This document shows positions 2,417-60,823 of a stretch of DNA of 64,000 nt, in pieces; position 1 is the first letter of the stretch, and each line of letters starts with the position of its first letter. Made by a program: the position numbers and the translations under genes. The notes under the pieces are model-generated. The model saw only the letters and a program-made list of their open reading frames with translations. It ran no database searches and was not told the DNA's origin. The stretch is from an uncultured delta proteobacterium (GTDB lineage: Bacteria > Desulfobacterota > RBG-13-43-22): NCBI GenBank assembly GCA_963821645.1, contig CAWGEQ010000039.1, forward strand, positions 5,766-69,765. The letters are read 5' to 3'.

Positions 2417-3584
2417 ATGGATACCCGTAAACATATATTAGCTCTTGTGATTTTTCTGTCCACTTTGCAAGTGGGATTTTCTCTTTATCCGACTCCATCT
2501 CGATCATGATATTTTTTGGGACCTTGAAGTCTATAAGGCAGCCGTTGAAAATTTTGAAAATAATTCTAACCCTTATTCAATTGGAAATGAGCTATTGTTT
2601 ATATACCACCCTATAGTTCTTGAGTTATTTGGAATTTTGAACAAAATCAATCTTTGCTTTGGATTAGGCGTTTTTTATTCACTGTCTTTATTATTCATGT
2701 GGTTATCTTTAGGGAAAAAATATAGTCGAGAAATACTCCTATCTATCTCCTTTGGTGGAATAGGCTTATTGTCTTTTGCATCGGGCAATATAACCCCATT
2801 TTTACATCTTTTTTTGTTTGCTTTATTATTAAATGAGGTGCGAACCGATAAGTTTTTTTTATCCTATGCAGTAATCTTTATTTTTTCATTAATAAAGCCA
2901 TATTTTTGGCATATTATTTGGTACCAATTTTTGTTGATCAGAGAAATCTAAGGCAAAAAATTGGATTATGTTTATTTTTTATGGCTATATATGTAGCCAT
3001 AGTTATCCTTTACCAAACGTTAAACCCGGATATTGTTAGTCAGTATCATGCCGCCTTGCGTTATCAAATAGTTGGCAAGGAGGATGTTGGATTTTCATTT
3101 TTTTACTGGTTACTAAAATTAACCCACAGTAATCTTATTTCAATTATTTTGCACTCAATACTCTCCATTGCTCTAATTGGTATTATTTTATTTTTTTAGG
3201 GTTCGATGGAGCATGAAAGATTTATCTAAGGAAAACGCGCTTTATTTGACCTATTTTATACTTACAATCATAAACCCGAGGATGAAAGAATATGACTTAT
3301 TTCCGGCACTATTATCTCTTTTCATATTTGGTAAAAATGTTTTAGGGGAAAAGTTCTTAACCTGTTATGTCGCTTCGCTTACAGTCGTGTCCTTTCCCTT
3401 GTTCATATTAATTGTTGGTGTATTAGGTAACTTAAATCTCCCCGCATTGGGATATTTAATTTTTAATTATTTATGGCTGTCGGGCAGGTATCCTTGTTTT
3501 TTTTGCTGCACTCTTATTAAATGCAAGATCCATAAAATTAAAATCAAGAAATTTAAGTGCATCATCAAGGTGAGCCCCCTTTGA
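2417..3584 (+). pseudogene. AT-rich DUF2029/GT87-like membrane protein, at least 3 frameshifts
   Basis: ATG at 2417 (MDTRKHILALVIFLS...). It continues in ORFs 2595..2951, 2906..3199 and 3177..3584 in alternating frames. Contains HDIFWDLEVYKAAVENF...NPY and INPRMKEYDL motifs. Frame breaks lie at T-runs. About 30% GC by eye. Confidence 0.5.
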
Positions 3585-12020: not shown

Positions 12021-13431
12021 TTATAAATAATCATTAACAATGCCCACCAAATCATAGGGGTGGGCCTCAATAATCTTGACTTGTACTATCTCCCCGATCT
12101 TCGGTTCCCCATCGGTAATATAGACCACTCCATCCACCTCCGGGGCCTGAAAACGGGTCCGGCCTTGAATCAATAACTCGCTTTCCGGACTGATCCCGCT
12201 TACCAGGACCGGCTCCAGAGAACCGATCCGGTTTTCATTCTTCTTAAGAGAAATTTTCTTCTGGGTCTCCATTAAGAGATCCAGCCGGGCCTTACCGATT
12301 TCTTCCGGCACCTGGTCCGCATAGCCGGCAGCCGGGGTGCCTTCTTCCCGGGAATATCTGAAAACTCCGAGATGATCGAACCCCGTCTCGGAAACAAAAT
12401 CAACCAGCTCCTGAAAATCTTCTTCTGTTTCCCCGGGAAAGCCCACCATGACCGTGGTCCGAAGGGCCGCTTGCGGGAGTGTGCGACGAATTTTTTGGAT
12501 CAAGTCCCTCAAGGCTTTTTGCCCGTAGGGCCGATTCATGGCCTTAAGAATCCGGTCGCTGATATGTTGTATGGGGATGTCTAAATAAGGACAGATCTTT
12601 TCCTCTTGGGCCATCAAGGCTAAAAGGTCCGGGGTAATCCTTTCCGGCCGCAAATAAAGCAGGCGCAGCCATTGAAGGGACTCTATCTTTAACAATTCAA
12701 CAATCAACTCGTTCAAAGAAAGCGGCTGAACAAGATCGGACCCGTAAGCCGTCGTATCCTGGGCGATCAGGATGAGTTCACGGACCCCCTGCCCTGCCAG
12801 GATCTGCGCTTCCTGAATCAGCACCTTTGGGTCGCGGCTGCGGAAGGGTCCCCGGATAGAAGGGATTGTGCAGTAGGCACAGCGATTGGAACACCCCTCG
12901 GCGATCTTCAAATAAGCCGTTCCCGGAGAGGTGGTCAGGAGACGGCCATGCGGTTCTGCCCACAGTCCGGGAACAGGATCCAAAATCATTTTATGCGTTT
13001 TTCTCCCGGCCAGAAGGGCGGATACCTGATCGGCCACGGTCAAAAAAGATTCCGTGCCCAGGAAGAGATCCACTTCGGGTAATTGATCTATCAACTCAAT
13101 TCCCATATCTTTGTGGAAAACACCCGGTGACCACCAGGATCTGACAGGCCCCTTCCTCCTTTAATCGGGCCGCCTCTAAAATAGTGTCGATGCTTTCCTG
13201 GGTGGCGGATTCGATAAAGCTGCAAGTATTGATCAGGATCACTTCAGCCTTATCAGGGTCCTGAGTCAAAGAAAAACCCTTGGCCTCCAATTGATGGAGC
13301 ATGATCTCGCTGTCCACCTGATTCTTGGCACAGCCGAGGCTGATGAAATAGATCTTGGGAAAAGAAGGGGTCGAGGGGTCCAGGATTCGAGGATTCGAGG
13401 GTTTCGTTTTTGGGTTTGATTTGCTTTTCAT
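12021..13431 (-). pseudogene. rimO: ribosomal protein S12 methylthiotransferase RimO, one frameshift near 13100 (or sequencing error)
   Basis: ORFs 13096..13431 (ISLGCAKNQVDSE, VVTGCFPQRYG) and 12021..13106 (radical-SAM CSNRCAYCTIPSIRGPFRSR, C-terminal TRAM) lie in different frames. Confidence 0.85.
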
Positions 13432-16767: not shown

Positions 16768-18341
16768 ACATAAAGGCTTGAAGTTAAAAAAAGCGACCTG
16801 CCCCTTATCATCGTGGGTTATATTAGGGAGTGATCCCAATACAGAGCCAAAAATAAGGAGGCAGGTCATGAAACATTTTATCACAGTTGTCGGTATGGAT
16901 GTACACAAAGATTCCATAGAGATTGTAATCGCCGAAACCACAGGAACTCAAGAAGTTCGGCATTACGGAAAAATTAACGGCGACATGGCCTCATTGGACA
17001 AAGCAGTCAGAAAACTCAAAAGTACCAGTAGGGAACTGCACTTTGTCTATGAAGCTGGGCCATGTGGCTATGAGATTTACCGTCACCTATCCTCGCAGGG
17101 GTTTACTTGTGTGGTCGTTGCCCCCTCGAAGACTCCAAGACGGAGCGGCGACCGAATCAAAAACGATCGTCGCGATGCCGAGACACTGGCCCGGCTTTAT
17201 CGGGCCGGGGAGTTAACCCCAGTCTATGTTCCTCGACAGGACGACGAAGCCATGAGGGATTTGAACCGCGCCCGGGAAGATGCGGTCAAGGCCTTGCGCA
17301 CTGCCCATCAAGACTTAGGGGCTTTTCTGCTTCGGTATGGCCACAGGTACCCCGGTAAAACATCCTGGACACCTGCTCATATGCGTTGGCTATCGGACGT
17401 CACCATGCCTCACCCGGCCCAGCAGATTACGCTTCAGGAATATATCCACACGGTAAACGAGGGCACTCTGCGAGTCGGTCGTTTAGTCGACCAGATTCTG
17501 AAGCTGTTGCCCCAAGGGCGCCTGGCCCCAGTGGTTGAAGCCCTCCAGGCCCTCAGAGGGGTGGCTCCTATTGTGGCTATAACCACGGTCTCTGAGATCG
17601 GCGATATAACTCGTTTTGAGAACCCCCGGCAGTTTATGGCCTATCTGGGTCTGATTCCCTCGGAACACTCCAGCGGCCAGTCCGTCAAACGGGGCAGCAT
17701 CACCAAAACCGGCAATGGCCACGTCAGGCGCGTTCTCGTTGAAGCGGCGCAGGCCTATAGCTATCCGGCCCGGATAAGCAGGTTTCTGCTCAAACGACAA
17801 CAGGGACTGCCGCTGCCCTTCCGGGACATTGCCTGGAAAGCCAGGTTAGACTCTGCGGCCGGTTCAGAAGGCTTATGGCCCAAGGAAAAATGAAAACCAA
17901 AGTGGTCACCGCCATTGCCCGCGAGCTCTCCGGCTTCATGTGGGCTATTGCCAGGGAAGTTGATTTACAAAACGTGTAAGGTATGTCAAAAAACAAAACT
18001 TCTTAAAGGAGTACAGAGACAACAAATTATATCCTATCCAGGGGACCAGCAGAGACGCGACCACATTGGGAGAATCCTCGAGGAATCCAAGGAATAAGGT
18101 CATCCGAATTTCCGATCCTAGAGCGAGGCAGCTCCTGTGACGAAGTCAAGTCAGGCGTTCAAAATACGCGAATATCAGAATGATCAAACGTCGCTAAATC
18201 GGTCCCGTCTCTGCTTGTGCCCTGGATTAAAGTGAAAGGCTAACCCTCTACTAAGGGCCAGGAAGAATCTTTTTCTCTTGACAACTGTCAGCCATATCGG
18301 ATTCCGGCTTTCGCCGGAATGACGGATGGAAAAAATTAAAT
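16768..18341 (+). mobile_element. IS110-family insertion sequence (boundaries approximate)
   Basis: Transposase gene plus ~100 nt 5' and ~350 nt 3' non-coding sequence. The ~1.57-kb unit lies between inverted heptamer arms 16736-16767 (gggttcaaggagtcaaggggcaagg) and 18342-18363 (cccttgaaccctcgaatcctgg). Confidence 0.5.
16868..17979 (+). pseudogene. IS110-family DEDD transposase, C-terminal frameshift near 17838 (or sequencing error)
   Basis: MKHFITVVGMDVHKDS..., YEAGPCGY, RIKNDRRDA, TTVSEIGDITRFENPRQFMAYLGLIPSEHSSG..GSITKTGNGHVRR. After AWKA the canonical tail QVRLCGRFRRLMAQGKMKTKVVTAIARELSGFMWAIAREV continues in the +1 frame to TAA 17977-17979. Confidence 0.85.
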
Positions 18342-20410: not shown

Positions 20411-23400
20411 CTATGGATAAACCACTTCCAAAATCGGATGGCAGGAGATGCCCTTTAGTTCTCTTCTTAACCTGGCCGAAGGCCGGATATTCTGGGTTTC
20501 CGGAAGGTTCAACAGGACCTGGCTTTTATCGGGAAGACAGGCGCAAATCTGGACCGGACAGGCGCCGGGATGTCCCTTTAAAAAATCGGATAACTCGATG
20601 ATCCGATCCCGGGTCAGACCTTCTACCGGAATCTTGAGAACGGCCTGCTGGGCCATTTTTTCTTCGGCCTCGGTCAGGAGCAGCATATCATTGGCAATCA
20701 CCTTGATCCCTTTTTCATCCTTGGTGGTAAACCCGGCAATCCACAAGGGACCTTCTTCTTTCAGGACCGTCGATGATTTTCGGTAAACATCCGAAAAAAT
20801 GATGACCTCACAGGAGCCGGTCAGATCTTCAATGGTGGCAAAGGCCATCCGCTCCCCTTTTTTGCTGTTGATCTCTTTCAAGGCCGCCACCATACCGACC
20901 AAACGCACATTTTCTTTGTCCTCATAGTCGGCCAAGGCCTGGATATCGACTGTCTTTAAGTCCGGTAAACTCTCGGCATAGCGGGTCAGGGGATGGCCGG
21001 TGATATAAAAACCCAGGATTTCCTTTTCATAGGAAAGCTTTTGGCTCTCTCTCCATTCTTCAGCCATCGGAGGCTCGATATCGGGGCGGGTTAACCCCGA
21101 ATCTCCTCCCATGGAAAAAAGACTGAACTGATTTTCGGTCTGTTCTTTTTGACGCTGCTGCCCTATCTCCAGGGCTTCGGGTAAAAAGGCCATCAGCCTG
21201 GCCCGGGCCACTCCCAGGGAATCAAAGGCCCCGCATTTAATCAGGCTTTCCACCACCCGGCGATTCACCCGGCGAAGATCCACCCGCTGACAAAAATCGA
21301 TCAGGGACTTGAAGGCCCCCTCCTTCTTTCTGGCCTCGAGGATGGACTCAATGGCCCCGGCCCCGACATTTTTCACCGCCGCCAACCCGAAACGGATCTT
21401 GTCTTCCACCACGGCAAAATCCAATGGACTCAGGTTCACATCGGGCGGCAGGACCACGATCCCTTTTTCCCGGCATTCGGTGATGCATTTGGTCACTTCC
21501 GTTGAATTGCCCATCTTGCTGGTCACCAAAGCGACCATAAAATCCAGAGGATAATGGGCCTTCAGATAGGCGGTCTGGTAGGTAATCAGGGCATAGGCGG
21601 CACTGTGGGACTTGTTGAAACCGTAGCCGCCGAAGGTCTCCATATTTTTAAAAATGGCTTCGGCCTTCTTTTGATCGATTTTTTTCTTTTTGGTCCCATC
21701 CAGAAAGCGGCTTTTCTGCTGGGCCATGACCTCGGGGATCTTTTTACCCATGGCCTTGCGCAAGATGTCGGCCTCTCCCATGGAATAATCGGCCATCAGA
21801 CCGGCGATCTGCATAACCTGCTCCTGATAGACGATAATCCCCAGGGTTTCTTTCAATACCCCTTCCAGGAGGGGATGCGGATATTCTACCGGTACTTCCC
21901 CATGTTTTCTCTTGATATAATCCGCCACCATCCCGCTATTTAAAGGGCCGGGGCGATAGAGGGCATTGAGGGCGATGAGGTCTTCAAAATTCTGGGGTTG
22001 GCTCTTGATCAAAAGGTCCTTCATGCCCGAACTTTCCAATTGAAACACCCCGGTAGTATCCCCTCGGGCTAATAGTTGGTAAGTTTCCGGATCATCCAAG
22101 GGGATCCGAATCAAATCAATCTTGAGGCCGTGGGTCCGTTCGATGGTCCTTAAGGCATACTGGATGATGGTCAGGTTGTTCAAGCCCAGGAGGTCGAACT
22201 TGATCAGGCCCATTTCCTGGACCGATTTCATTTCATACTGGGTCAGGATTTCACCCTTGGGGCCTTTGTATAAGGGAACGGTCTCGGTGATGGGATGGGG
22301 GGAAATGACCACGCCGGCGGCGTGGGTGGAGGCATGGCGGGGAAGTCCCTCCAGGGCTTCGGCAATGGTCAGCAGTTCTTTAATGGTCGGATCGGTTTCC
22401 TTCAGCTCTTTAAGCCGGGGCTCCGCCTCGAGGGCTTCTTTTAAAGTAATGTTTAATTTCGAAGGGATCAGCTTGGCGATCTTATCCACTTCGCCATAAG
22501 GGATATTCAGGGCCCGCCCCACATCCCGAATGACGGCCCGGGCCTGCATCTTTCCAAAAGTGATGATCTGGGCCACATGCTCTTGCCCATATTTCCCGGC
22601 AATGTATTTCAAGACCTCATCCCGCCGTTCTACGCAGAAATCCACGTCGATATCCGGGAGTTCTTTTCGTTCCAGGTTCAGAAAGCGCTCAAAGATCAGG
22701 CCGTAATCCAAAGGATCGATATCGGTAATCCCCAGGGAATAGGCCACCAGACTCCCGGCCCCGGAACCCCGGCCGGGTCCGACCGGAATCCCTTGCTGCT
22801 TGGCAAACCCCACATAATCGGCCACGACCAAAAAATATCCGGAAAATCCCGTTGTGGTGATTACCATCAGTTCCTTTTCCAGGCGGTCCCGATACTCTTT
22901 AAAACGCGACGGGGGAAAGGAGGGATCCAGTTGTTCCTTCATTGACAGTCTTTTCTCCAGACCGGCGCGGGCCTCATTTTTAAGCCGGCCGTCCATGGTC
23001 TCTTCCGGGGGCAAGGGATAGCGGGGGAGAAAAGATTGGCCGAAGTTCAATTCCAGGTTGCAGCGATCGGCAATGCGCAGGGTATTTTGGATGGCTTCCG
23101 GCAAGTCTGAAAAAAGGGCCGTCATCTCTTCCGGTGATTTGAAATAAAGCTGATTGGTGGAAAAACGCAACCGGTTGGGGTCTTCAACGGTCTTCCCGGT
23201 CTGGATGCAAAGCAAGACGTCATGGGCCTTGGACTCTTCCTGGGTCAGGTAATGACAATCGTTGGTGGCCACGATGGGTATGCCCAACTGACGGTGGATC
23301 TCCAGCAACCCCTTATTGACGATTTCCTGCTCGGGGATATCGTTTTTTTGCAGTTCAAGAAAAAAACGATCCTGATCGAAGATCTCGGCCATTTCCCGGG

Positions 23401-23836
23401 TGATTTTTAAAGCCCGGTCATAGTCGTTATTAAGCAAGGCATAGGGGATTTCGCCGTGAAGACAGGCCGACAGGGCGATCAATCCTTTATGATGCTCCTT
23501 CAGAAGCTCCCGGTCGATCCTGGGTTTATAATAAAAACCTTCAAAATAGGCCTGGGTCACCAATTTGACTAAGTTACGATAACCCTTTTCATTTTTGCAG
23601 AGCAAGACCAAGTGGAAGGCGTTTTCCCTGTGGGGATGGCCCTCTTTATCAAAGCGGCTTCCCGGGGCCACATACATTTCGCAGCCGATGATGGGTTTCA
23701 GTCCATGTTTCTGGGCCTGTTTATAAAACTCCACCATGCCGAAGATGTTGCCGTGATCGGTCATGGTTATGGCCGGGAGTTTGAAGGCCTGGGCCTTTTC
23801 AAACAACTCTTTGAGCCTTATCTCACCATCCAGCAA
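20411..23836 (-). CDS. dnaE: DNA polymerase III alpha subunit, downstream duplicate: complete C-terminus, lacks native start
   Basis: 1141 aa with PHP, polymerase core, OB and C-terminal domains. Frame is open only from a stop at 23915-23917. First usable start is TTG 23836, so the first 17 aa including part of HLHLHTQYS are missing. Confidence 0.85.
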   Translation of the reverse strand: MLDGEIRLKELFEKAQAFKLPAITMTDHGNIFGMVEFYKQAQKHGLKPIIGCEMYVAPGSRFDKEGHPHRENAFHLVLLCKNEKGYRNLVKLVTQAYFEGFYYKPRIDRELLKEHHKGLIALSACLHGEIPYALLNNDYDRALKITREMAEIFDQDRFFLELQKNDIPEQEIVNKGLLEIHRQLGIPIVATNDCHYLTQEESKAHDVLLCIQTGKTVEDPNRLRFSTNQLYFKSPEEMTALFSDLPEAIQNTLRIADRCNLELNFGQSFLPRYPLPPEETMDGRLKNEARAGLEKRLSMKEQLDPSFPPSRFKEYRDRLEKELMVITTTGFSGYFLVVADYVGFAKQQGIPVGPGRGSGAGSLVAYSLGITDIDPLDYGLIFERFLNLERKELPDIDVDFCVERRDEVLKYIAGKYGQEHVAQIITFGKMQARAVIRDVGRALNIPYGEVDKIAKLIPSKLNITLKEALEAEPRLKELKETDPTIKELLTIAEALEGLPRHASTHAAGVVISPHPITETVPLYKGPKGEILTQYEMKSVQEMGLIKFDLLGLNNLTIIQYALRTIERTHGLKIDLIRIPLDDPETYQLLARGDTTGVFQLESSGMKDLLIKSQPQNFEDLIALNALYRPGPLNSGMVADYIKRKHGEVPVEYPHPLLEGVLKETLGIIVYQEQVMQIAGLMADYSMGEADILRKAMGKKIPEVMAQQKSRFLDGTKKKKIDQKKAEAIFKNMETFGGYGFNKSHSAAYALITYQTAYLKAHYPLDFMVALVTSKMGNSTEVTKCITECREKGIVVLPPDVNLSPLDFAVVEDKIRFGLAAVKNVGAGAIESILEARKKEGAFKSLIDFCQRVDLRRVNRRVVESLIKCGAFDSLGVARARLMAFLPEALEIGQQRQKEQTENQFSLFSMGGDSGLTRPDIEPPMAEEWRESQKLSYEKEILGFYITGHPLTRYAESLPDLKTVDIQALADYEDKENVRLVGMVAALKEINSKKGERMAFATIEDLTGSCEVIIFSDVYRKSSTVLKEEGPLWIAGFTTKDEKGIKVIANDMLLLTEAEEKMAQQAVLKIPVEGLTRDRIIELSDFLKGHPGACPVQICACLPDKSQVLLNLPETQNIRPSARLRRELKGISCHPILEVVYP

Positions 23837-23938: not shown

Positions 23939-26900
23939 TCACCTTGATCCCTTTTTCGCCTTGGTGGTAAACCCGGCAATCCACAAGGGACCTTCTTCTT
24001 TCAGAACCGTCGATGATTTTCGGTAAACATGAGAAAAAATGATGACCTCACAGGAGCCGGTCAGATCTTCAATGGTGGCAAAGGCCATCCGCTCCCCTTT
24101 TTTGCTGTTGATCTCTTTTAAGGCCGCCACCATACCGACCAAACGCACATTTTCTTTGTCCTCATAGTCGGCCAAGGCCTGGATATCGACTGTCTTTAAG
24201 TCCGGTAAACTCTCGGCATAGCGGGTCAGGGGATGGCCGGTGATATAAAAACCCAGGATTTCCTTTTCATAGGAAAGCTTTTGGCTCTCTCTCCATTCTT
24301 CAGCCATCGGAGGCTCGATATCGGGGCGGGTTAATCCAGAATCTCCTCCCATGGAAAAAAGACTGAACTGATTTTCGGTCTGTTCTTTCTGACGCTGCTG
24401 CCCTATCTCCAGGGCTTCGGGTAAAAAGGCCATCAGCCTGGCCCGGGCCACTCCCAGGGAATCAAAGGCCCCGCATTTAATCAGGCTTTCCACCACCCGG
24501 CGATTCACCCGGCGAAGATCCACCCGCTGACAAAAATCGATCAGGGACTTGAAGGCCCCCTCCTTCTTTCTGGCCTCTAAGATGGACTCAATGGCCCCGG
24601 CACCGACATTTTTCACCGCCGCCAACCCGAAACGGATCTTGTCTTCCACCACGGCAAAATCCAATGGACTCAGATTCACATCGGGCGGCAGGACCACGAT
24701 CCCTTTTTCCCGGCATTCGGTGATGCATTTGGTCACCTCCGTTGAATTGCCCATCTTGCTGGTCACCAAAGCGACCATAAAATCCAGAGGATAATGGGCC
24801 TTCAGATAGGCGGTCTGGTAGGTAATCAGGGCATAAGCGGCGCTGTGGGACTTGTTGAAACCGTAGCCGCCAAAGGTTTCCATATTTTTAAAAATGGCTT
24901 CGGCCTTCTTTTGATCAATTTTTTTCTTTTTGGTCCCATCCAGAAAGCGGCTTTTCTGCTGGGCCATGACCTCGGGGATCTTTTTACCCATGGCCTTGCG
25001 CAAGATGTCGGCCTCTCCCATGGAATAATCGGCCATCAGACCGGCGATCTGCATAACCTGCTCCTGATAGACGATAATCCCCAGGGTTTCTTTCAATACC
25101 CCTTCCAGGAGGGGATGCGGATATTCTACCGGTACTTCCCCATGTTTTCTCTTGATATAATCCGCCACCATCCCGCTATTTAAAGGGCCGGGGCGATAGA
25201 GGGCATTGAGGGCGATGAGGTCTTCAAAATTCTGGGGTTGGCTCTTGATCAAAAGGTCCTTCATGCCCGAACTTTCCAATTGAAACACCCCGGTAGTATC
25301 CCCTCGGGCCAATAGTTGGTAAGTTTCCGGATCATCCAAGGGGATCCGAATCAAATCAATCTTGAGGCCGTGGGTCCGTTCGATGGTCCTTAAGGCATAC
25401 TGGATGATGGTCAGGTTGTTCAAGCCCAGGAGGTCGAACTTGATCAGGCCCATATCCTGGACCGATTTCATTTCATACTGGGTCAGGATTTCACCCTTGG
25501 GGCCTTTATATAAGGGAACGGTCTCGGTGATGGGATGGGGGGAAATGACCACGCCGGCGGCGTGGGTGGAGGCATGGCGGGGAAGTCCCTCCAGGGCTTC
25601 GGCAATGGTCAGCAGTTCTTTAATGGTCGGATCGGTTTCCTTCAGCTCTTTAAGCCGGGGCTCCGCCTCAAGGGCTTCTTTTAAAGTAATGTTTAATTTC
25701 GAAGGGATCAGCTTGGCGATCTTATCCACTTCGCCATAAGGGATATTCAGGGCCCGCCCCACATCCCGAATGACGGCCCGGGCCTGCATCTTTCCAAAAG
25801 TGATGATCTGGGCCACATGCTCTTGCCCGTATTTCCCGGCAATGTATTTTAAGACCTCATCCCGCCGTTCTACGCAGAAATCCACGTCGATATCCGGGAG
25901 TTCTTTTCGTTCCACGTTCAGAAAGCGCTCAAAGATCAGGCCGTAATCCAACGGATCGATATCGGTAATCCCCAGGGAATAGGCCACCAGACTCCCGGCC
26001 CCGGAACCCCGGCCGGGTCCGACCGGAATCCCTTGCTGCTTGGCAAACCCCACATAATCGGCCACGACCAAAAAATATCCGGAAAATCCCGTTGTGGTGA
26101 TTACCGTGAGTTCCTTTTCCAGGCGGTCCCGATACTCTTTAAAACGCGACGGGGGAAAGGAGGGATCCAGTTGTTCCTTCATGGACAGTCTTTTCTCCAG
26201 ACCGGCGCGGGCCTCATTTTTAAGCCGGCCGTCCATGGTCTCTTCCGGGGGCAAGGGATAGCGGGGGAGAAAAGATTGGCCGAAGTTCAATTCCAGGTTG
26301 CAACGATCGGCAATGCGCAGGGTATTTTGGATGGCTTCCGGCAAGTCTGAAAAAAGGGCCGTCATCTCTTCCGGTGATTTGAAATAAAGCTGATTGGTGG
26401 AAAAACGCAACCGGTTGGGGTCTTCAACGGTCTTCCCGGTCTGGATGCAAAGCAAGACGTCATGGGCCTTGGCCTCTTCCTGGGTCAGATAATGACAGTC
26501 ATTAGTAGCCACTATGGGGAGACCCAACTGACGGCTGATTTCCAACAAACCCTTGTTGACGATTTCCTGTTCCGGGATATCATTCTTTTGCAGTTCAAGA
26601 AAAAAACGATCCTGATCGAAGATCTCGGCCATTTCCCGGGTGATTTTTAAAGCCCGGTCATAGTCTTTATTAAGCAAGGCATAGGGGATTTCGCCGTGAA
26701 GACAGGCCGACAGGGCGATCAATCCTTTATGATGCTCCTTCAGGAGTTCCCGGTCGATCCTGGGTTTATAATAAAAACCTTCGAAATAGGCCTGGGTCAC
26801 CAATTTGACTAAGTTACGATAACCCTTTTCATTTTTGCAGAGCAAGACCAGGTGGAAGGCGTTTTCCCTGTGGGGATGGCCCTCTTTATCGAAGCGGCTT

Positions 26901-27124
26901 CCCGGGGCCACATACATTTCGCAGCCGATGATGGGTTTCAGTCCATGTTTCTGGGCCTGTTTATAAAACTCCACCATGCCGAAGATGTTGCCGTGATCGG
27001 TCATGGTTATGGCCGGGAGTTTGAAGGCCTGGGCCTTTTCAAACAACTCTTTGAGCCTTATCTCCCCATCCAGCAAGCTGTACTGGGTATGGAGATGGAG
27101 ATGGACAAACGGGGCGTGGGGCAT
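23939..27124 (-). CDS. dnaE: DNA polymerase III alpha subunit, upstream duplicate: native start, C-terminally truncated by a 1-nt deletion
   Basis: Starts MPHAPFVHLHLHTQYSLLDG (ATG 27124). Collinear with the other copy, with 8 aa differences. Ends ...GFTTKAKKGSR, about 100 aa short. Confidence 0.85.
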   Translation of the reverse strand: MPHAPFVHLHLHTQYSLLDGEIRLKELFEKAQAFKLPAITMTDHGNIFGMVEFYKQAQKHGLKPIIGCEMYVAPGSRFDKEGHPHRENAFHLVLLCKNEKGYRNLVKLVTQAYFEGFYYKPRIDRELLKEHHKGLIALSACLHGEIPYALLNKDYDRALKITREMAEIFDQDRFFLELQKNDIPEQEIVNKGLLEISRQLGLPIVATNDCHYLTQEEAKAHDVLLCIQTGKTVEDPNRLRFSTNQLYFKSPEEMTALFSDLPEAIQNTLRIADRCNLELNFGQSFLPRYPLPPEETMDGRLKNEARAGLEKRLSMKEQLDPSFPPSRFKEYRDRLEKELTVITTTGFSGYFLVVADYVGFAKQQGIPVGPGRGSGAGSLVAYSLGITDIDPLDYGLIFERFLNVERKELPDIDVDFCVERRDEVLKYIAGKYGQEHVAQIITFGKMQARAVIRDVGRALNIPYGEVDKIAKLIPSKLNITLKEALEAEPRLKELKETDPTIKELLTIAEALEGLPRHASTHAAGVVISPHPITETVPLYKGPKGEILTQYEMKSVQDMGLIKFDLLGLNNLTIIQYALRTIERTHGLKIDLIRIPLDDPETYQLLARGDTTGVFQLESSGMKDLLIKSQPQNFEDLIALNALYRPGPLNSGMVADYIKRKHGEVPVEYPHPLLEGVLKETLGIIVYQEQVMQIAGLMADYSMGEADILRKAMGKKIPEVMAQQKSRFLDGTKKKKIDQKKAEAIFKNMETFGGYGFNKSHSAAYALITYQTAYLKAHYPLDFMVALVTSKMGNSTEVTKCITECREKGIVVLPPDVNLSPLDFAVVEDKIRFGLAAVKNVGAGAIESILEARKKEGAFKSLIDFCQRVDLRRVNRRVVESLIKCGAFDSLGVARARLMAFLPEALEIGQQRQKEQTENQFSLFSMGGDSGLTRPDIEPPMAEEWRESQKLSYEKEILGFYITGHPLTRYAESLPDLKTVDIQALADYEDKENVRLVGMVAALKEINSKKGERMAFATIEDLTGSCEVIIFSHVYRKSSTVLKEEGPLWIAGFTTKAKKGSR

Positions 27125-27133
27125 CTTTAATCC

Positions 27134-27355
27134 AGGTATAAGGTACAAGGTGCAAGGTGTAAGGTTAAAAACAACAAACTTCCTCTATGCTTTGAGCTTA
27201 TTTGTTTGCAATATATTTTTCTCCCTCTTACATCCCACATCTTATCCCTTGCCTCCTGATCCCTTAATTCTTTGGGTTTGCACCCTGCGTCTTAACCTTG
27301 CACCTTGGACCTTATACCTTGAACCCTTCACCTTGTACCTTGGGCCTTGCACCTT
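27134..27355. repeat. inverted AAGGTNC / GNACCTT heptamer array (dnaE-guaA spacer)
   Basis: Left arm 27134-27167, ~125-nt centre, right arm 27293-27355. Confidence 0.8.
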
Positions 27356-51058: not shown

Positions 51059-52654
51059 ATGATGGGAAAAAAATCACTTTATCTTTCACCCAGCCAGGTT
51101 GAAAAAAAATTTAAAGATGCCCGTCTGGGACTCAAAGAGACGCTGTCTTTGATAGAAATGACCTGGGAGGACCCCCCCCGGAGTTCGGTCCTTAAACCTT
51201 CCAGTCGATTATTTAATCCCCTGGATCGGTTGTCCCGTTCGACGGTCAGGGGGAGCCGGATCCAACGATTCAGGCCCAACGGTCCCACTCAACCTTTTCA
51301 AGTGTTTGAGGTCTATACCCAGGAAAAAGAGGTATTGGCCTATTTAAACTTGCTTTATTTGCGCAAACCCCTTCCCTGCTATTATTTGGTTTACGTGGAA
51401 GTAACTCCTTCATTACGAGGAAAAGGATTGGGAAACCGGATACTGGAGGCCTTTCGTGACCTGGTTGAAGAAAAGGGGGCGCTGGGCCTTTTGGATAATA
51501 TCATCCCCCCCGAAGACCCTACCTTTGATATTTATACCAAACTGGGCTGGACCTCCCTTGATAACCTGATCGGGTCCGACGAAGGCTTGAATCAAGGCCA
51601 TTATATGATCTACCACCCCACAAGTTTAAAAACGAAGTCTTTTAAACTCAAGCTTTCCCAGTTGATTTTCAATCTCGAGAAAAAAAGGCCCGTGATTGAG
51701 ATGCAGGACAACGAATTAATGGTTCAACGAACCATCCGGGAGTTCAATGACCTCCATTCGGCCTTGAAAAGGCTCTTTAAAAAAGAGCTTGAATCCGGAA
51801 ACAGTTCCCCCCTGATGCGTTTTATGTTCACCAAATTTACCACCCGATTGTTGGGTTTTCAAAGACGTATCCAGGAATTATTGGGTTATACCGGCGGTGA
51901 GTCCTTAAAACAAATCGCGCTCTCTTCCCATATCTGTTCTCTGCCCATTCAGCCCTTCAACTTTGTTCCGGAAGGAAACGATTTTAAACTATTCGGAGAT
52001 CCTTCTTTATGGACGTCTTTACCCCATGCCATAAAGGCCAATCCTACTCTGGCCATTGAAAGATTGCCCTTATATCAAAGACCCTATCTGAAACAATGGA
52101 TGGAGGAAAAAGGATGTTCCGAGCCTCTCAGGCTGACCATTGCCGACCTTTTGGATCTTGGTTTCGATCCCACCCGCTTGAGGGAACTGGCCCTCCCGGA
52201 TCGCGTTTTTATGTTTGAGCGGATCTCCCCCGTCCTCCTCGATGAAATTGAGGAAAGAAAAGACTTAGTCCATAAAATAGATCGGAAAACTCGAGAAATC
52301 AGGATTCAGCAGGCTCAAGTCAAAATCAATCCACCCCTTCTCTGGATTCACGACCGGGGAAACGGTTATATTTTACGAAGAAAGATAGAGGGGATCCACT
52401 GGGAGGAAGCGGTTTATCAACTCAAACAAAATCCGGACCTCCGGTTTCTCAATCAGCACCTGTTATTGGATCAAAAACTGACTAAAATCATAGGAGAGAC
52501 AATGAACTGGATTAAGGCCCACATCCGGGTCTCCGATCCGTCGATCATTCAAGACTTGGCCTATTTTGTCCCCTGGAACCTGGAGAAGAACCGTCCGCTG
52601 TTCTCCATTGACAACGCCAATGTCCCCTATTTAGAAAAGATTTGGGTGGCCTGA
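51059..52654 (+). CDS. GNAT-domain protein with long uncharacterised C-terminal region
   Basis: 531 aa. GNAT motif A-like VEVTPSLRGKGLGNRILEAF. The remaining ~380 aa are not recognised. Start uncertain (no RBS). Confidence 0.55.
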   Translation: MMGKKSLYLSPSQVEKKFKDARLGLKETLSLIEMTWEDPPRSSVLKPSSRLFNPLDRLSRSTVRGSRIQRFRPNGPTQPFQVFEVYTQEKEVLAYLNLLYLRKPLPCYYLVYVEVTPSLRGKGLGNRILEAFRDLVEEKGALGLLDNIIPPEDPTFDIYTKLGWTSLDNLIGSDEGLNQGHYMIYHPTSLKTKSFKLKLSQLIFNLEKKRPVIEMQDNELMVQRTIREFNDLHSALKRLFKKELESGNSSPLMRFMFTKFTTRLLGFQRRIQELLGYTGGESLKQIALSSHICSLPIQPFNFVPEGNDFKLFGDPSLWTSLPHAIKANPTLAIERLPLYQRPYLKQWMEEKGCSEPLRLTIADLLDLGFDPTRLRELALPDRVFMFERISPVLLDEIEERKDLVHKIDRKTREIRIQQAQVKINPPLLWIHDRGNGYILRRKIEGIHWEEAVYQLKQNPDLRFLNQHLLLDQKLTKIIGETMNWIKAHIRVSDPSIIQDLAYFVPWNLEKNRPLFSIDNANVPYLEKIWVA

Positions 52655-52700
52655 TTCCGCTTTTTTCTTGACAAGCCGGATTGACCATGAATACCTTAAA

Positions 52701-52752
52701 AAGGTCAAAGGTCAAAGGTCAAAGGTCAAAGGTCAAAGGTCAACAGGTCAAA
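52701..52752. repeat. six perfect tandem AAGGTCA units plus one variant
   Basis: aaggtca x6 (52701-52742), then acaggtca. Confidence 0.9.
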
Positions 52753-52772
52753 GCCGCTCCAAGGTTTCCCAA

Positions 52773-53456
52773 ATGATAAACTGGTCTAAAAAAACCCTCG
52801 GGGTTCTCTTGTTTTTTTTAGGGACAGGGCTGGCCGTTTCCGCCCCTCTGGCCCCTTCTTTAAAAATTCCTTCCCCGGACTATGACTTTGGGGAGGTCGA
52901 AGAAGGGAGTATCCTGTCCCACGACTACCTGATAAAAAATACCGGTCCTGGAATCCTGGAAATAGTTAATGTTCGACCCGGCTGAGGCTGTTCCGTGGCC
53001 CATTTTGACCGGGCCGTCTCCCCAGGAGGGGAAGGGAAAATTTCCTTAACGGTAAATTTAAAAAGGTATCATGGACAGGTCTGGAAATCAGCCACGATTG
53101 TCAGCAACGACCCGGAAAAGCCAAATGTAACGTTGAGCTTTCATGGAAAGATCCGCCCTTTTATTGAATTACTCCCCACATCTTCCATCGAATTCAGGAG
53201 TAAGGGGCCGGGGCAAGAAGAAAAAACCATCGATATCCTGGCCACCTCACACCCCTTTCATATCCAAAAGATAGAAAACGGACTTACCGAGAAAATCAGA
53301 TATCGTTTAGAGACCGTTAAAGATGGTCAGCACTATCGGCTCAAAATTACCAGGATTCAAAAATCAGGAAAATTTTTTGGATTCATTAAGTGTTTCACCG
53401 ATCACCCCCAAAAACCGGAAATTCAAATCCCGATTATAAACAATCTCGACGGGTGA
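52773..53456 (+). CDS. secreted DUF1573-family protein with in-frame TGA (52983-52985) at the first Cys of the CGC motif; candidate selenoprotein or nonsense pseudogene
   Basis: ORFs 52668..52985 and 52995..53456 share one frame. Signal peptide MINWSKKTLGVLLFFLGTGLAVSA. YDFGEVEEGS...IKNTGPGILEIVNVRPG[TGA]GCSVA...PGGEGKISL...IVSNDP. Confidence 0.6.
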
Positions 53457-53465
53457 CCTGAAACC

Positions 53466-54686
53466 ATGCATCTTGTCGCCCTTACCCATCTCTTTTCCCC
53501 GGCCAGGGGAGGGACGGAAAACGCCCTCCTCGATTTGGCCAAAGGACTGGTTAAAAAGGGACATCGGGTAACCGTGGTCACATCCAATCAAATCCGCCTG
53601 GAAGATTTTAGAAAGCCTCGACCCAATCCTTCCCTGCCGGGGGAAGAATTCAAAGAGGGCATTCATATTATCCGTTTACCCCTTTCTCCAAGCCAACGGT
53701 TCATCTTAGCCAAAATAGGGGCCCTGGCCCTGCGCAGTGGTCTTATGGGTGGAGAAACCTTCTGGTTCATGACCCATGTCCCCCACCTTCCCCAGATGAT
53801 CAAGAAGGCCCGGGAACTCAACCCGGACCTTGTCTATGCCGTCCCCTTCCCGACCGCATCCATTTATTATGCTTCGGCGGCCGCTAAAAAAATAGGCCGC
53901 CCGTGGGTCATTCAACCCCATCTTCATTTTAATGACTTAAATGCCTCCCTGGTAAAAATCATCCGCTGGATCTTCCCCAAGGCTTCAGCCATATTGACCA
54001 ATACCCCGGCTGAAAAAAATTATTTAATCCAACAAGGTCTTCAGGGCGACAAGATTCATGCCTTGGGACAAGGGCTTGACCTTACCCTTCTGGAAGGGGG
54101 GGACGGCTGCCGTTTCCGTTCAACCCTTGGTCTCACCGACGAACCCCTGATCCTTTTTCTGGGCCGCAAGGTGCAGGATAAGGGGATCGACATCCTCTTA
54201 GACACCATGCCCTTGATCTGGAAAGAGGAACCCCGCTCGGTCTTAATCTTGGCCGGTCGGACCAGCCCCTATTTTAAGACCTTATACAACGGCCATTCCC
54301 TTTCTAAAGATTCCCGTATCATTTCTTTGGATGATTTTCCGGATGAAAAAAAATTGGACCTCCTGGCGGCTTGTGACCTGCTCATCCTTCCTTCCCGGGT
54401 CGAAAGTTTTGGGGTGGTTTTTTTGGAGGCCTGGGCCAAGGGAAAACCGGTCATCGGGGCCCCCATACCGGCTGTCGCCGACCTGATCGATCAGGGGGAA
54501 GATGGGTTTTTAGTCACCTACGGCGATCGACTCGGCCTGGCCGCCGCAGCGACCAGACTGATAAAAGATCCTGCCCTCCGAAGGACTATGGGAGAAAGAG
54601 GGAAGCTCAAGGTGCAGGAGCGATTTGAAATCGGCCGAATTACCGATCGCATGGAGGCTTTATTTTTGAGCCTCATAAAGTCATGA
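53466..54686 (+). CDS. glycosyltransferase family 4 (GT-B)
   Basis: 406 aa. GGTENALLDLAKGL, C-terminal ESFGVVFLEAWAKGKPVI..., EDGFLV. Confidence 0.85.
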   Translation: MHLVALTHLFSPARGGTENALLDLAKGLVKKGHRVTVVTSNQIRLEDFRKPRPNPSLPGEEFKEGIHIIRLPLSPSQRFILAKIGALALRSGLMGGETFWFMTHVPHLPQMIKKARELNPDLVYAVPFPTASIYYASAAAKKIGRPWVIQPHLHFNDLNASLVKIIRWIFPKASAILTNTPAEKNYLIQQGLQGDKIHALGQGLDLTLLEGGDGCRFRSTLGLTDEPLILFLGRKVQDKGIDILLDTMPLIWKEEPRSVLILAGRTSPYFKTLYNGHSLSKDSRIISLDDFPDEKKLDLLAACDLLILPSRVESFGVVFLEAWAKGKPVIGAPIPAVADLIDQGEDGFLVTYGDRLGLAAAATRLIKDPALRRTMGERGKLKVQERFEIGRITDRMEALFLSLIKS

Positions 54687-55546
54687 CTGAAGTCGCCCTT
54701 ACAGTATCGGTGGTCATTTGTACCTTAAACCGCGAAGAGTCCCTGATCCATGTCCTCAAACTCTTGAAAGATCAGACCAGGCCACCATTGGAGATCCTGG
54801 TTATGGATCAAAGCCGGGAGCATAAGCCGGAGACCTGGGATTACCTGAAGGAAAACCAAGACCGGATCCGCCTCTTGCCCTTGCCTTTCCCGTCCACTAC
54901 CGGGGCCCGCAACATGGCCCGGAAAGACGTACGGGGGGACATCGTCCTCTTCCTGGATGATGATGTCCTGTTTCATCCCACCTTGATTGAAACCCATCTG
55001 GAAAACTATCGGGATGAACCTCTGGGGGCCGTCAGCGGCAAGGTCCTTTACGACGGCTGTACGGAAAATGACTGGCCCTGGGCGGCTCGAATTACCCCGA
55101 GCGGGAAATACCTCCGGAATTTTACCACCGATCAAAGATGCCTGGTTCCGACCTTGTACGGCTGTAATATGTCCATCCGGAATAAGGTCCTTCAGGAGGT
55201 CGGGGAATTCGACCTGAATTACTGGGGTAACTTTTTATGGGAGGAGGTGGATTATGCCCTTCAGATCCGAAAGCATGGGTATCAGATCCTCTATGAGCCA
55301 AGGGCGGCGGTATTTCATGTCATGGAAAAGCAGGGAGGGAGCAGAACCCCCCCTCCTCGAAGGTATCTGGAAAGTACGGTTTTCAACGACTGGTATTTTT
55401 TCTTTAAATATATCCCCAAAAAATTTTGGCCCTTTTTGTTATACCGGCAGAAAAGGACCTGGTTTGAATACCTCAAGGTAAACCGGGGGAATATCCTTCC
55501 CCTGCTTAAACAAATAAGCCTGGCCCATAAAAAAATATTCCCCTGA
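54683..55546 (+). CDS. glycosyltransferase family 2
   Basis: 287 aa. VSVVICTLNREE, FLDDDV (DXD), GCNMSIR. Confidence 0.85.
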   Translation: MTEVALTVSVVICTLNREESLIHVLKLLKDQTRPPLEILVMDQSREHKPETWDYLKENQDRIRLLPLPFPSTTGARNMARKDVRGDIVLFLDDDVLFHPTLIETHLENYRDEPLGAVSGKVLYDGCTENDWPWAARITPSGKYLRNFTTDQRCLVPTLYGCNMSIRNKVLQEVGEFDLNYWGNFLWEEVDYALQIRKHGYQILYEPRAAVFHVMEKQGGSRTPPPRRYLESTVFNDWYFFFKYIPKKFWPFLLYRQKRTWFEYLKVNRGNILPLLKQISLAHKKIFP

Positions 55547-60208: not shown

Positions 60209-60823
60209 ATGAACACCATCCCAGTCCTGGAAATTTTTTCAGACTATGTCTGACCCTGGTGCTATTTCATTACCGGGCGTATTGATCGATTACAAAAGAC
60301 TTATGAAATTGATGTCCGCTGGACGGCCTTTCCCCTCCATCCCGAAACCCCCGAGGAAGGGCAAACCCTTGAACAACTTTTCTCCGGACGTCTGGACCTC
60401 GACCAGGTTATGGCCAGGCTGAAACAGGCGGCCCGAGATGCCGGACTGCCCTTCGGCGATCGAAAAATGACCTATAACAGCCGATTAGCCCAGGAACTGG
60501 CCAAATGGGCCGGTTCCAAGGAAAAAGAAGACCAATTTCACCAGGCGATTTTCCAGGCCTATTTTGTCAAAGGCATCAATATCGGGAAAATTGCCGAGCT
60601 GGCCAGACTGGCCGAATCCATCGGGCTCCCCGGAAAAGAAGCCGAAGAGGTTTTGCAGAAGAGGACTTTTAAAGAGGCTGTTGATAGCGATTGGCTCAGA
60701 TCGCGTCAAATGGGCATCCAAGCCGTTCCCACCTTGGCCTTGGACCGTTGTGTCCTGGTTGGTGCCCAGCCCTACGAAAAGATGGCGGAGTTTTTGGAGG
60801 CGGCTAGTGTACGAAAGTCCTGA
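60209..60823 (+). CDS. DsbA/FrnE-like thiol oxidoreductase with in-frame TGA (60251-60253) at the first Cys of CPWC; probable selenoprotein (UPWC)
   Basis: MNTIPVLEIFSDYV[TGA]PWCYFITGRIDRL... is in frame with ORF 60410..60823 (…VPTLALDRCVLVGAQPYE). Confidence 0.7.

What the first reader, a model, noticed from the sequence alone, without database searches (positions are those of the whole stretch)
52773..53456. In-frame UGA replacing the first Cys of the conserved CGC motif of a secreted DUF1573 protein: candidate new selenoprotein
ORFs 52668..52985 and 52995..53456 are in the same frame and separated only by TGA 52983-52985. Read through, the product is a typical DUF1573 domain: ...FGEVEEGS...IKNTGPGILEIVNVRPG-U-GCSVA...PGGEGKISL...IVSNDP. 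In this family the corresponding position is the invariant ..sCGCT.. motif, so the TGA sits exactly on a conserved Cys. That is the classic Sec/Cys signature. A hairpin ggccc-attttgacc-gggcc starts 13 nt after the TGA (extendable by G-U pairs). A second hairpin (ctcccc-agga-ggggaa) follows. A second UGA-at-Cys gene lies 7 kb away (60251). I do not know of DUF1573 being listed as a selenoprotein family.
Basis: partly seen in the sequence, partly recalled or inferred. Interest (0 to 1): 0.7.

Follow-up and report, generated by a model that had tools for sequence, protein, structure and literature searches.

The report
Known DUF1573 (OS_HP2) selenoprotein gene
The in-frame TGA is real and almost certainly encodes selenocysteine, but the protein belongs to a selenoprotein family described in 2007 (OS_HP2, DUF1573 with a U-G-C motif), so this is an unannotated member of a known family and not a new one.

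Summary
One 227-codon gene (52773-53456, + strand) carries an in-frame TGA at 52983-52985, on the first Cys of the DUF1573 C-G-C motif.

- **Conservation of the TGA.** Of 80 homologous loci from different species, 74 have TGA at this column, 5 have TGT or TGC, and 1 has ACA.
- **Hairpin.** A 5-bp hairpin (52997-53001 paired with 53011-53015) starts 11 nt after the TGA. All five pairs show compensatory changes, including at synonymous third-codon positions. The Cys forms lose the pairing. This is what a SelB-type bacterial SECIS looks like.
- **UGA is not reassigned.** It still ends genes in the window, including this one.
- **Second selenoprotein gene.** A DsbA-like U-x-x-C gene lies at 60209-60823.
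- **Novelty claim fails.** NCBIfam has the model NF041425, "OS_HP2 family (seleno)protein". The window protein scores 99.4 bits against a cutoff of 100, and nine orthologs score 100.6-120.4. [quoted passage not shown]
- **Not shown.** No selA, selB, selC or selD lies in the 64-kb window. The biochemical function is unknown.

Interest is low.

The parts
52644..52662 (+). Terminator-like hairpin with a T-run at the end of the upstream GNAT-like gene (51059-52654). It suggests the selenoprotein gene starts its own transcript.
   Evidence: Consensus scan; Pfam hit of the upstream gene. This is only a consensus match.
52700..52753 (+). Heptamer tandem repeat AAAGGTC, 7.6 copies, in the 5' leader 20 nt before the start codon. 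Copy number varies among close relatives.
   Evidence: TRF. L002 and L081 have 8 copies, L001 has 2, and L083 and L084 have none. The short-read contig L085 breaks inside the repeat.
52773..53456 (+). Complete coding sequence of the OS_HP2/DUF1573 selenoprotein: 227 codons including Sec71, ending at stop TGA 53454-53456.
   Evidence: The start M-I-N-W-S-K-K is conserved in L001, L002, L083 and P0074.
52773..52844 (+). Predicted Sec-type signal peptide MINWSKKTLGVLLFFLGTGLAVSA. There is no lipobox Cys.
   Evidence: Read from the sequence: a KK n-region, a hydrophobic core and A-V-S-A. This is inference; no signal-peptide predictor was available.
52866..53150 (+). DUF1573 / HYDIN-like Ig-like beta-sandwich domain (residues 32-126) carrying the U-G-C motif.
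   Evidence: Pfam PF07610 E 2.7e-19 and PF22544 E 7.6e-09. NCBIfam NF041425 scores 99.4 bits over residues 33-127.
52983..52985 (+). UGA codon read as selenocysteine (residue 71) in the motif R-P-G-U-G-C.
   Evidence: TGA in 74 of 80 homologous loci, Cys codons in 5. The frame is open for at least 63 codons upstream and at least 61 downstream in every Sec locus.
52997..53015 (+). SECIS hairpin: stem 52997-53001 paired with 53011-53015, 9-nt loop AUUUUGACC. It can be extended by U.G and G.U pairs (52995-52996 with 53016-53017).
   Evidence: All 5 pairs change on both sides and 89.9% of cells are paired. The covariation score is 0.234 against 0.097 for shuffles, with 0 of 500 shuffles reaching it. 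Third-codon-position pair 15/33 gives chi-square p 8e-10; the six loci without TGA (five Cys, one Thr) are only 60% paired.
53019..53032 (+). Second small hairpin (UCCCC/AGGA/GGGGA) over the Pro-Gly-Gly-Glu codons. Probably a by-product of coding.
   Evidence: Three of its 5 pairs are invariant or nearly so, fixed by codon positions 1 and 2. It is 72% paired overall, and one pair forms in only 3 of 73 sequences. The same CCNCCNGGNGG string occurs in the Cys forms.
53154..53453 (+). Second beta-rich domain (residues 128-227) with no Pfam hit. Many relatives carry a third domain that is missing here.
   Evidence: The AF2 model of Cys homolog P0036 shows three consecutive beta-sandwich domains at pLDDT 89.5. 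Downstream ORF lengths fall into groups of about 156 and about 260-300 codons.
53466..54686 (+). GT4 glycosyltransferase gene, 9 nt after the selenoprotein stop codon. Probably co-transcribed.
   Evidence: Pfam. The order OS_HP2-GT4-GT2 is kept in 13 related loci.
54683..55546 (+). GT2 glycosyltransferase gene, overlapping the GT4 stop codon by 4 nt.
   Evidence: Pfam; synteny.
60209..60823 (+). Second selenoprotein gene in the window: DsbA-like, F-S-D-Y-V-U-P-W-C, with TGA at 60251-60253.
   Evidence: The TGA is kept in L081 and L083. In NCBI assembly GCA_049792855.1 the ortholog is called as 204 aa across the TGA. PF01323 is recorded for the ortholog fragment. 'DsbA-like protein form 1, PF01323, UxxC' is a listed selenoprotein family (PMC13188914).

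Best explanation
Window 52773-53456 is one gene for a secreted protein made of two Ig-like domains. It belongs to the OS_HP2 / DUF1573 selenoprotein family. During translation the UGA at 52983 is read as selenocysteine. The hairpin in the mRNA 11 nt downstream (52997-53015) acts as a bacterial SECIS. It recruits SelB carrying Sec-tRNA(Sec) to the ribosome, so the chain continues instead of ending. The product carries a U-G-C motif in a turn between two beta strands of the DUF1573 domain. The motif most likely works as a redox pair, a selenenylsulfide formed with Cys73, or as a binding site for a soft metal, in the periplasm or cell envelope. What is shown: the gene is continuous, the TGA is conserved, Sec and Cys alternate at that column, and the hairpin co-varies. 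What is inferred: SelB dependence, export, and above all the biochemical role.
For: (1) TGA occupies this column in 74 of 80 loci from different species. These include the cultured strains Desulfacinum infernum DSM 9756, D. hydrothermale DSM 13146, Desulforhabdus sp. TSK, Desulfoferrobacter suflitae and strain NaphS2. Five loci have Cys codons.
(2) Amino-acid conservation runs through the TGA, and codon substitution patterns are similar on both sides.
(3) All five hairpin pairs show compensatory changes, for example GGCCC/GGGCC becoming GGUGG/CCACC in L021, L025 and L043. At the synonymous pair 15/33 the counts are G-C 17, C-G 10, U-A 7 and A-U 2. Pairing drops in the Cys forms.
(4) NF041425 'OS_HP2 family (seleno)protein' scores 99.4 bits here and 100.6-120.4 bits on nine orthologs.
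(5) The literature lists DUF1573/UGC as a selenoprotein family.
(6) UGA still ends genes in this window: this gene, the GNAT-like gene, GT4 and the DsbA-like gene.
(7) A second selenoprotein gene of a known family lies 7 kb away.
(8) Thermodesulfobacteriota are among the phyla richest in selenoproteins (PMC13188914).
(9) A separate short-read assembly reproduces the TGA.
Against: No selA, selB, selC or selD lies in the 64-kb window, and the rest of the genome could not be read. The folding energy of the region is no better than that of shuffled sequence (z = 0.25), so the hairpin rests on covariation alone. The invariant loop bases U22, G25 and A26 are also fixed by the Phe and Asp codons. No Rfam SECIS model matches. 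The NCBIfam score is 0.6 bits under the curated cutoff. There is no experimental evidence of Se incorporation for this family in what I read. The redox or metal role is an analogy and was not tested.
Confidence: 0.9

Rival explanations
1. The TGA is a nonsense mutation, a pseudogene lesion or a base-call error, and the gene is dead in this organism.
For: Gene callers split the gene. The 98% identical ortholog in GenBank is annotated only as a 153-aa hypothetical protein.
Against: The same TGA is present in 74 of 80 species. It also appears in a separate short-read assembly of the identical sequence. Both halves stay open and conserved, and the downstream hairpin co-varies.
Confidence: 0.01
2. 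UGA terminates here, and two separate products are made: a 70-residue exported peptide and a 153-residue protein started at GTG 52995.
For: GTG 52995 lies three codons after the TGA, and many databases carry the 153-aa form.
Against: The split would cut the DUF1573 beta-sandwich in the middle (Pfam match 32-126 spans the TGA). It would also leave the C-terminal part without a signal peptide. Cys homologs are single chains (P0019, P0036). The [MV]AHFDR 'start' is simply a Val codon (GTN) in the conserved sequence C-[SAT]-V-A-H-F-D.
Confidence: 0.03
3. UGA is read through without selenium, by a near-cognate tRNA inserting Trp or Cys, or under a reassigned genetic code.
For: One database entry (P0074) shows W at this position. 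Sec machinery was not seen.
Against: UGA ends conserved genes in the same window, so the code is not reassigned. The W in P0074 most likely comes from the gene caller's code table. Alternation with Cys, a co-varying hairpin at SECIS distance, and a second U-x-x-C gene all point to Sec.
Confidence: 0.04

Closest known systems
[quoted passage not shown]
   Same: The domain, the U-G-C motif, the position of Sec, the host phylum (Deltaproteobacteria / Thermodesulfobacteriota), and TGA followed by a hairpin. Nine orthologs pass the model's cutoff.
   Different: The window protein scores 99.4 bits against a cutoff of 100. Its clade has two domains where many members have three. The gene sits upstream of GT4 and GT2 glycosyltransferase genes, whereas many members follow genes for an S41 peptidase and a polysaccharide deacetylase. 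The 2007 paper reported no Cys homologs; several exist now.
Cys-type DUF1573 proteins (PF07610) with the C-G-C motif
   Same: The same Ig-like fold and the same motif column. P0019 and P0036 are 42-45% identical and read RP[GS]CGCTAA.
   Different: They have Cys where this protein has Sec. The downstream hairpin is degraded, mainly because Thr ACN replaces Ala GCN at nt 31-33 and breaks pair 17-31. Their function is also unknown.
Escherichia coli fdhF SECIS / SelB recoding
   Same: A stem-loop inside the coding sequence just 3' of the UGA (PMC9312934). From my own knowledge, not tested here: the minimal E. coli element is a short upper hairpin placed 11 nt after the UGA, which is the spacing seen here, and it has G and U in the loop.
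   Different: The sequence is different, the stem is only 5 bp in this window (up to 7 bp in relatives), and the loop has 9 nt. No Rfam model matches. SelB binding was not tested.
DsbA-like selenoprotein form 1 (PF01323, UxxC), the neighbour at 60209-60823
   Same: It shows that the same organism carries another Sec-for-Cys gene of a listed family.
   Different: It has a thioredoxin fold with a classical U-x-x-C redox motif, unrelated to the Ig-like OS_HP2 protein.

Membership tests
OS_HP2 family (seleno)protein, NCBIfam NF041425 | HMM score at or above the curated cutoff of 100 bits | tested here: not met
   99.4 bits, E 1.1e-28, covering model positions 2-97 of 98. Nine reconstructed homologous domains, including one at 89% identity, score 100.6-120.4 bits. 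The shortfall is 0.6 bits, and homology is not in doubt.
OS_HP2 family (seleno)protein, NCBIfam NF041425 | U-G-C (or C-G-C) motif at the conserved column of a DUF1573 domain | tested here: met
   R-P-G-U-G-C at residues 68-73. The motif is listed as 'UGC' in PMC9312934 and PMC13188914.
OS_HP2 family (seleno)protein, NCBIfam NF041425 | DUF1573 (PF07610) domain | tested here: met
   69.4 bits against a gathering score of 26.1.
Bacterial selenoprotein gene (general) | In-frame UGA aligned with Cys in homologs and conserved in orthologs | tested here: met
   74 TGA, 5 Cys codons and 1 Thr codon among 80 loci.
Bacterial selenoprotein gene (general) | SECIS stem-loop immediately 3' of the UGA | tested here: met
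   Hairpin at +15 to +33 counted from the U of UGA. Five of 5 pairs show compensatory change and 89.9% of cells are paired. Energy alone is not significant.
Bacterial selenoprotein gene (general) | selA, selB, selC (tRNA-Sec) and selD in the same genome | not testable with these tools
   None lies in the 64-kb window: the only tRNA is tRNA-Met, and Pfam scans of 30 ORFs found none. No tRNA-Sec lies in the 80 fetched loci. The rest of the genome cannot be fetched. Indirect support comes from the second selenoprotein gene in the window.
Bacterial selenoprotein gene (general) | Selenium shown in the protein | not testable with these tools
   Needs 75Se labelling or mass spectrometry.
Thiol-disulfide oxidoreductases of the thioredoxin fold | Thioredoxin fold with a C/U-x-x-C/U motif | tested here: not met
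   The fold is an Ig-like beta-sandwich (Pfam PF22544; AF2 model of homolog P0036). PDB fold matches are tandem Ig-like, HYDIN-like and cadherin-like domains. The motif is U-x-C, not U-x-x-C.

The most novel reading that the evidence does not exclude
The window's clade may be a functionally distinct branch of OS_HP2. It has two domains, scores just under the NF041425 cutoff, and is always followed by a GT4 and a GT2 glycosyltransferase gene. In that reading, a periplasmic Ig-like protein with a Sec-Gly-Cys loop takes part in building or modifying an envelope glycan. Its expression would be tuned by the hypervariable heptamer repeat in the 5' leader, which has 0, 2, 7.6 or 8 copies among relatives that are 89-98% identical.
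Probability: 0.1. Interest if true: 0.4.

Novelty: new member of a known kind. Interest (0 to 1): 0.15.

Why it matters
The practical value is for annotation. This clade falls 0.6 bits under the NCBIfam cutoff. The 98% identical ortholog in GenBank assembly GCA_049792855.1 is deposited as a 153-residue hypothetical fragment, although the DsbA-like selenoprotein on the same contig is called correctly. Lowering the cutoff slightly or adding these sequences to the seed would recover a whole clade of missed selenoproteins.

The 75-sequence alignment also gives clean covariation support for the SECIS of this family. The function of OS_HP2/DUF1573 is still unknown. The cultured carriers found here (Desulfacinum, Desulforhabdus, NaphS2) make it testable.

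None of this changes what is known about selenium biology.

Tried and rejected
- **Rfam.** At gathering thresholds over the whole window, Rfam found only tRNA-Met. With permissive E-values around both TGAs it found no SECIS family, only noise.
- **Folding energy.** The region downstream of the TGA folds no better than shuffled sequence (z = 0.25). The DsbA-like gene gives z = -0.38. Energy was dropped as evidence in favour of covariation.
- **Sec machinery.** ARAGORN found no tRNA-Sec in the window or in the 80 loci. Pfam scans of 30 window ORFs found no SelA, SelB or SelD.
- **Other candidates.** A scan of all six frames for other in-frame TGAs with long open stretches on both sides gave only 52983 and 60251 as convincing cases.
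- **Solved structures.** Sequence search gave only a weak hit of the family profile to the uncharacterised protein 2qsv (E 1.4e-06), and nothing useful for the single protein.
- **Structure prediction.** Its fold matches are generic tandem Ig-like domains and give no functional lead.
- **Literature.** A search for the 11-nt SECIS spacing rule returned an unrelated paper, so that point rests on my own knowledge.
- **Second hairpin.** It was considered as a functional RNA element and rejected as a by-product of coding.

Full report
**Observation**

ATG 52773 opens a frame that runs to the stop TGA at 53454-53456 and is interrupted only by TGA 52983-52985. ORFs 52668-52985 and 52995-53456 share this frame. 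With Cys put in place of the TGA, the 227-residue product matches Pfam DUF1573 (PF07610, E 2.7e-19, residues 32-126) and the HYDIN/VesB-like Ig domain PF22544. The domain match spans the TGA.

The N-terminus MINWSKKTLGVLLFFLGTGLAVSA reads as a signal peptide. This is my inference from the sequence. The start M-[IS]-N-W-S-K is conserved in relatives.

A separate assembly from the short reads of run ERR11523651 (L085) gives the identical sequence, TGA included. A base-call error is therefore excluded.

**Is the TGA conserved?**

A protein search returned mostly 153-residue fragments that begin [MV]AHFDR. Gene callers restart just after the TGA in many organisms. It also returned full-length Cys forms such as P0019 and P0036, which read RP[GS]CGCTAA.

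A scan of one genome per species returned 80 homologous loci at 33-89% identity, all from Thermodesulfobacteriota or 'delta proteobacteria'. They include the cultured strains Desulfacinum infernum DSM 9756, D. hydrothermale DSM 13146, Desulforhabdus sp. TSK, Desulfoferrobacter suflitae and strain NaphS2.

| Codon at the column of window 52983 | Loci |
|---|---|
| TGA | 74 |
| TGT or TGC (Cys) | 5 |
| ACA (Thr) | 1 |

In every TGA locus the frame is open for at least 63 codons upstream and at least 61 downstream. Substitution patterns are similar on both sides of the TGA.

UGA is not reassigned in this organism. It ends this gene, the upstream GNAT-like gene, the GT4 gene and the DsbA-like gene.

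**The hairpin**

Count the U of UGA as position 1. The stem then pairs positions 15-19 with 29-33 (window 52997-53001 with 53011-53015), leaving an 11-nt spacer and a 9-nt loop.

I aligned the 75 TGA-containing sequences without gaps. On that alignment:

- All five pairs show changes on both sides, and 89.9% of cells form a standard pair.
- The covariation score for the structure tested (both hairpins) is 0.234, against 0.097 for shuffles (0 of 500 reach it) and at most 0.112 when the 3' partners are slid by 1-3 columns.
- L021, L025 and L043 have GGUGG/CCACC in place of GGCCC/GGGCC.
- L010, L011 and L014 have A-U in place of G-C at pair 16/32.
- Pair 15/33 joins the third positions of a Val and an Ala codon, so it is free of protein constraint. 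Among the 47 sequences with GTN and GCN it reads G-C 17, C-G 10, U-A 7, U.G 3, G.U 2, A-U 2 and unpaired 6. The chi-square p is 8e-10, not corrected for phylogeny.

The six loci without TGA (five Cys, one Thr) pair in only 60% of cells, and the five Cys loci in 13 of 25. The main cause is Thr ACN replacing Ala GCN, which breaks pair 17/31.

Folding energy alone is not significant (z = 0.25), and no Rfam model matches. The invariant loop bases U22, G25 and A26 are also fixed by the Phe and Asp codons, so they cannot be credited to the RNA alone.

The second hairpin (53019-53032) is mostly invariant because it codes Pro-Pro-Gly-Gly. It is 72% paired, one of its pairs forms in only 3 of 73 sequences, and it is also present in the Cys forms. 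I treat it as a by-product of coding.

**Is it known?**

Yes.

- **NCBIfam model.** NCBIfam carries NF041425, 'OS_HP2 family (seleno)protein'. The window protein scores 99.4 bits against a cutoff of 100. Nine reconstructed homologous domains score 100.6-120.4 bits.
- **First report.** OS_HP2 was reported as a new selenoprotein family from the Olavius algarvensis symbionts in 2007 (PMC1976440, Table 2).
- **Catalog listing.** The 2022 and 2026 catalogs list 'DUF1573 domain-containing protein, PF07610, motif UGC' and cite that work (PMC9312934, PMC13188914).

A small practical point follows from the 0.6-bit shortfall. In GenBank assembly GCA_049792855.1 the 98% identical ortholog is deposited as a 153-residue hypothetical protein. 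The DsbA-like selenoprotein on the same contig is called across its TGA as 204 residues.

**Does the organism use Sec?**

The window holds no selA, selB, selD or tRNA-Sec. The rest of the genome could not be fetched. Support is indirect:

- A second gene, 60209-60823, reads F-S-D-Y-V-U-P-W-C. Its TGA is kept in L081 and L083.
- That gene belongs to the listed family 'DsbA-like form 1, PF01323, UxxC'.
- The phylum is among the richest in selenoproteins.

A six-frame scan found no further convincing in-frame TGA in the window.

**Protein and context**

An AlphaFold2 model of the Cys homolog P0036 has mean pLDDT 89.5 and shows three consecutive beta-sandwich domains. The C-G-C lies in the turn between strands 79-86 and 91-95. 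PDB fold matches are generic tandem Ig-like domains. The window protein has only the first two domains.

The gene is followed 9 nt later by a GT4 glycosyltransferase gene and then by an overlapping GT2 gene. This order is kept in 13 related loci, down to about 50% identity.

Across the 80 loci the neighbouring genes are as follows:

| Neighbour | Position | Loci |
|---|---|---|
| YibQ-like polysaccharide deacetylase | upstream | 28 |
| S41 C-terminal processing peptidase | upstream | 22 |
| GT4 and GT2 glycosyltransferases | downstream | 13 |
| Rex-like regulator | upstream | 8 |
| Rhodanese | mixed | 7 |
| DsbD/CcdA-type membrane protein | upstream | 6 |

These neighbours point to the cell envelope and hint weakly at periplasmic redox chemistry. 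They do not fix a function.

**Mechanism**

My best account has two parts. The first is SelB-dependent insertion of Sec at UGA 52983, directed by the hairpin at 52997-53015. The genetics are shown; the SelB step is inferred. The second is an exported Ig-like protein whose U-G-C loop acts as a selenenylsulfide redox pair or a soft-metal site. That part is an inference by analogy with C-x-C redox motifs and rests on my own knowledge.

**Verdict**

This is a real selenoprotein gene and an unannotated member of a known family. The novelty is low and the interest is low.

Noticed in passing
window 52700-52753: A heptamer tandem repeat (AAAGGTC, 7.6 copies) sits in the 5' leader of the selenoprotein gene. 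L002 and L081 have 8 copies with alternating C and G, and L001 has 2. The 98% identical relatives L083 and L084 have none and carry an unrelated leader of about 40 nt instead. The short-read contig L085 breaks inside the repeat. It is a hypervariable leader of unknown effect.
   Followed up: partly
window 60209-60823: A second selenoprotein gene: DsbA-like (PF01323) with U-P-W-C and TGA at 60251-60253. The TGA is kept in L081 and L083, and NCBI calls the ortholog across the TGA. A hairpin starts at the A of the TGA, but its energy is not significant.
   Followed up: partly
window 20411-23836 and 23939-27148, minus strand: Two tandem copies of dnaE (DNA polymerase III alpha) are 99% identical over 1043 residues. 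Each ORF lacks a different end. This is either a recent tandem duplication or an assembly artefact.
   Followed up: partly
window 12021-13431, minus strand: A radical SAM + TRAM ORF of the RimO/MiaB type (by Pfam domains; 12021-13106) follows a 111-codon ORF (13096-13431) that lies in a different frame and was not scanned. If that ORF is the missing N-terminal part, this is a frameshift, a pseudogene or a sequencing error. It is not a Sec site.
   Followed up: no
L036, about 3127-3200 (MAG Syntrophobacteraceae T3Sed10_239): This homolog has ACA (Thr) at the Sec column yet keeps the most stable hairpin of all (-16.4 kcal/mol). It could be a recent loss of Sec or an error in the MAG.
   Followed up: no
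protein P0074: This database entry shows W at the Sec position (VQPGWGCSVAH). The gene caller evidently read TGA as Trp under another code table, which is an annotation artefact.
   Followed up: no
L083 4321-4782 (GCA_049792855.1, JBARBH010000018.1): The 98% identical ortholog is deposited as a 153-aa hypothetical protein (WA974_00360). The likely reason is that this clade scores just under the NF041425 cutoff: 99.4 bits for the window protein against 100.
   Followed up: yes
window 16778-17893; L081 1-6800: An IS110-family transposase lies in the window. The 90% relative L081 has a cluster of IS91, DDE and Y2 transposases just upstream of the syntenic block, so this region is prone to rearrangement.
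   Followed up: no
genomes behind L019/L024, L020/L047, L023/L041, L025/L032, L026/L057, L028/L030, L034/L037, L042/L058: Several genomes carry two OS_HP2 paralogs. In some, one copy has Sec and the other Cys (L028 Sec with L030 Cys; L025 Sec with L032 Cys).
   Followed up: no
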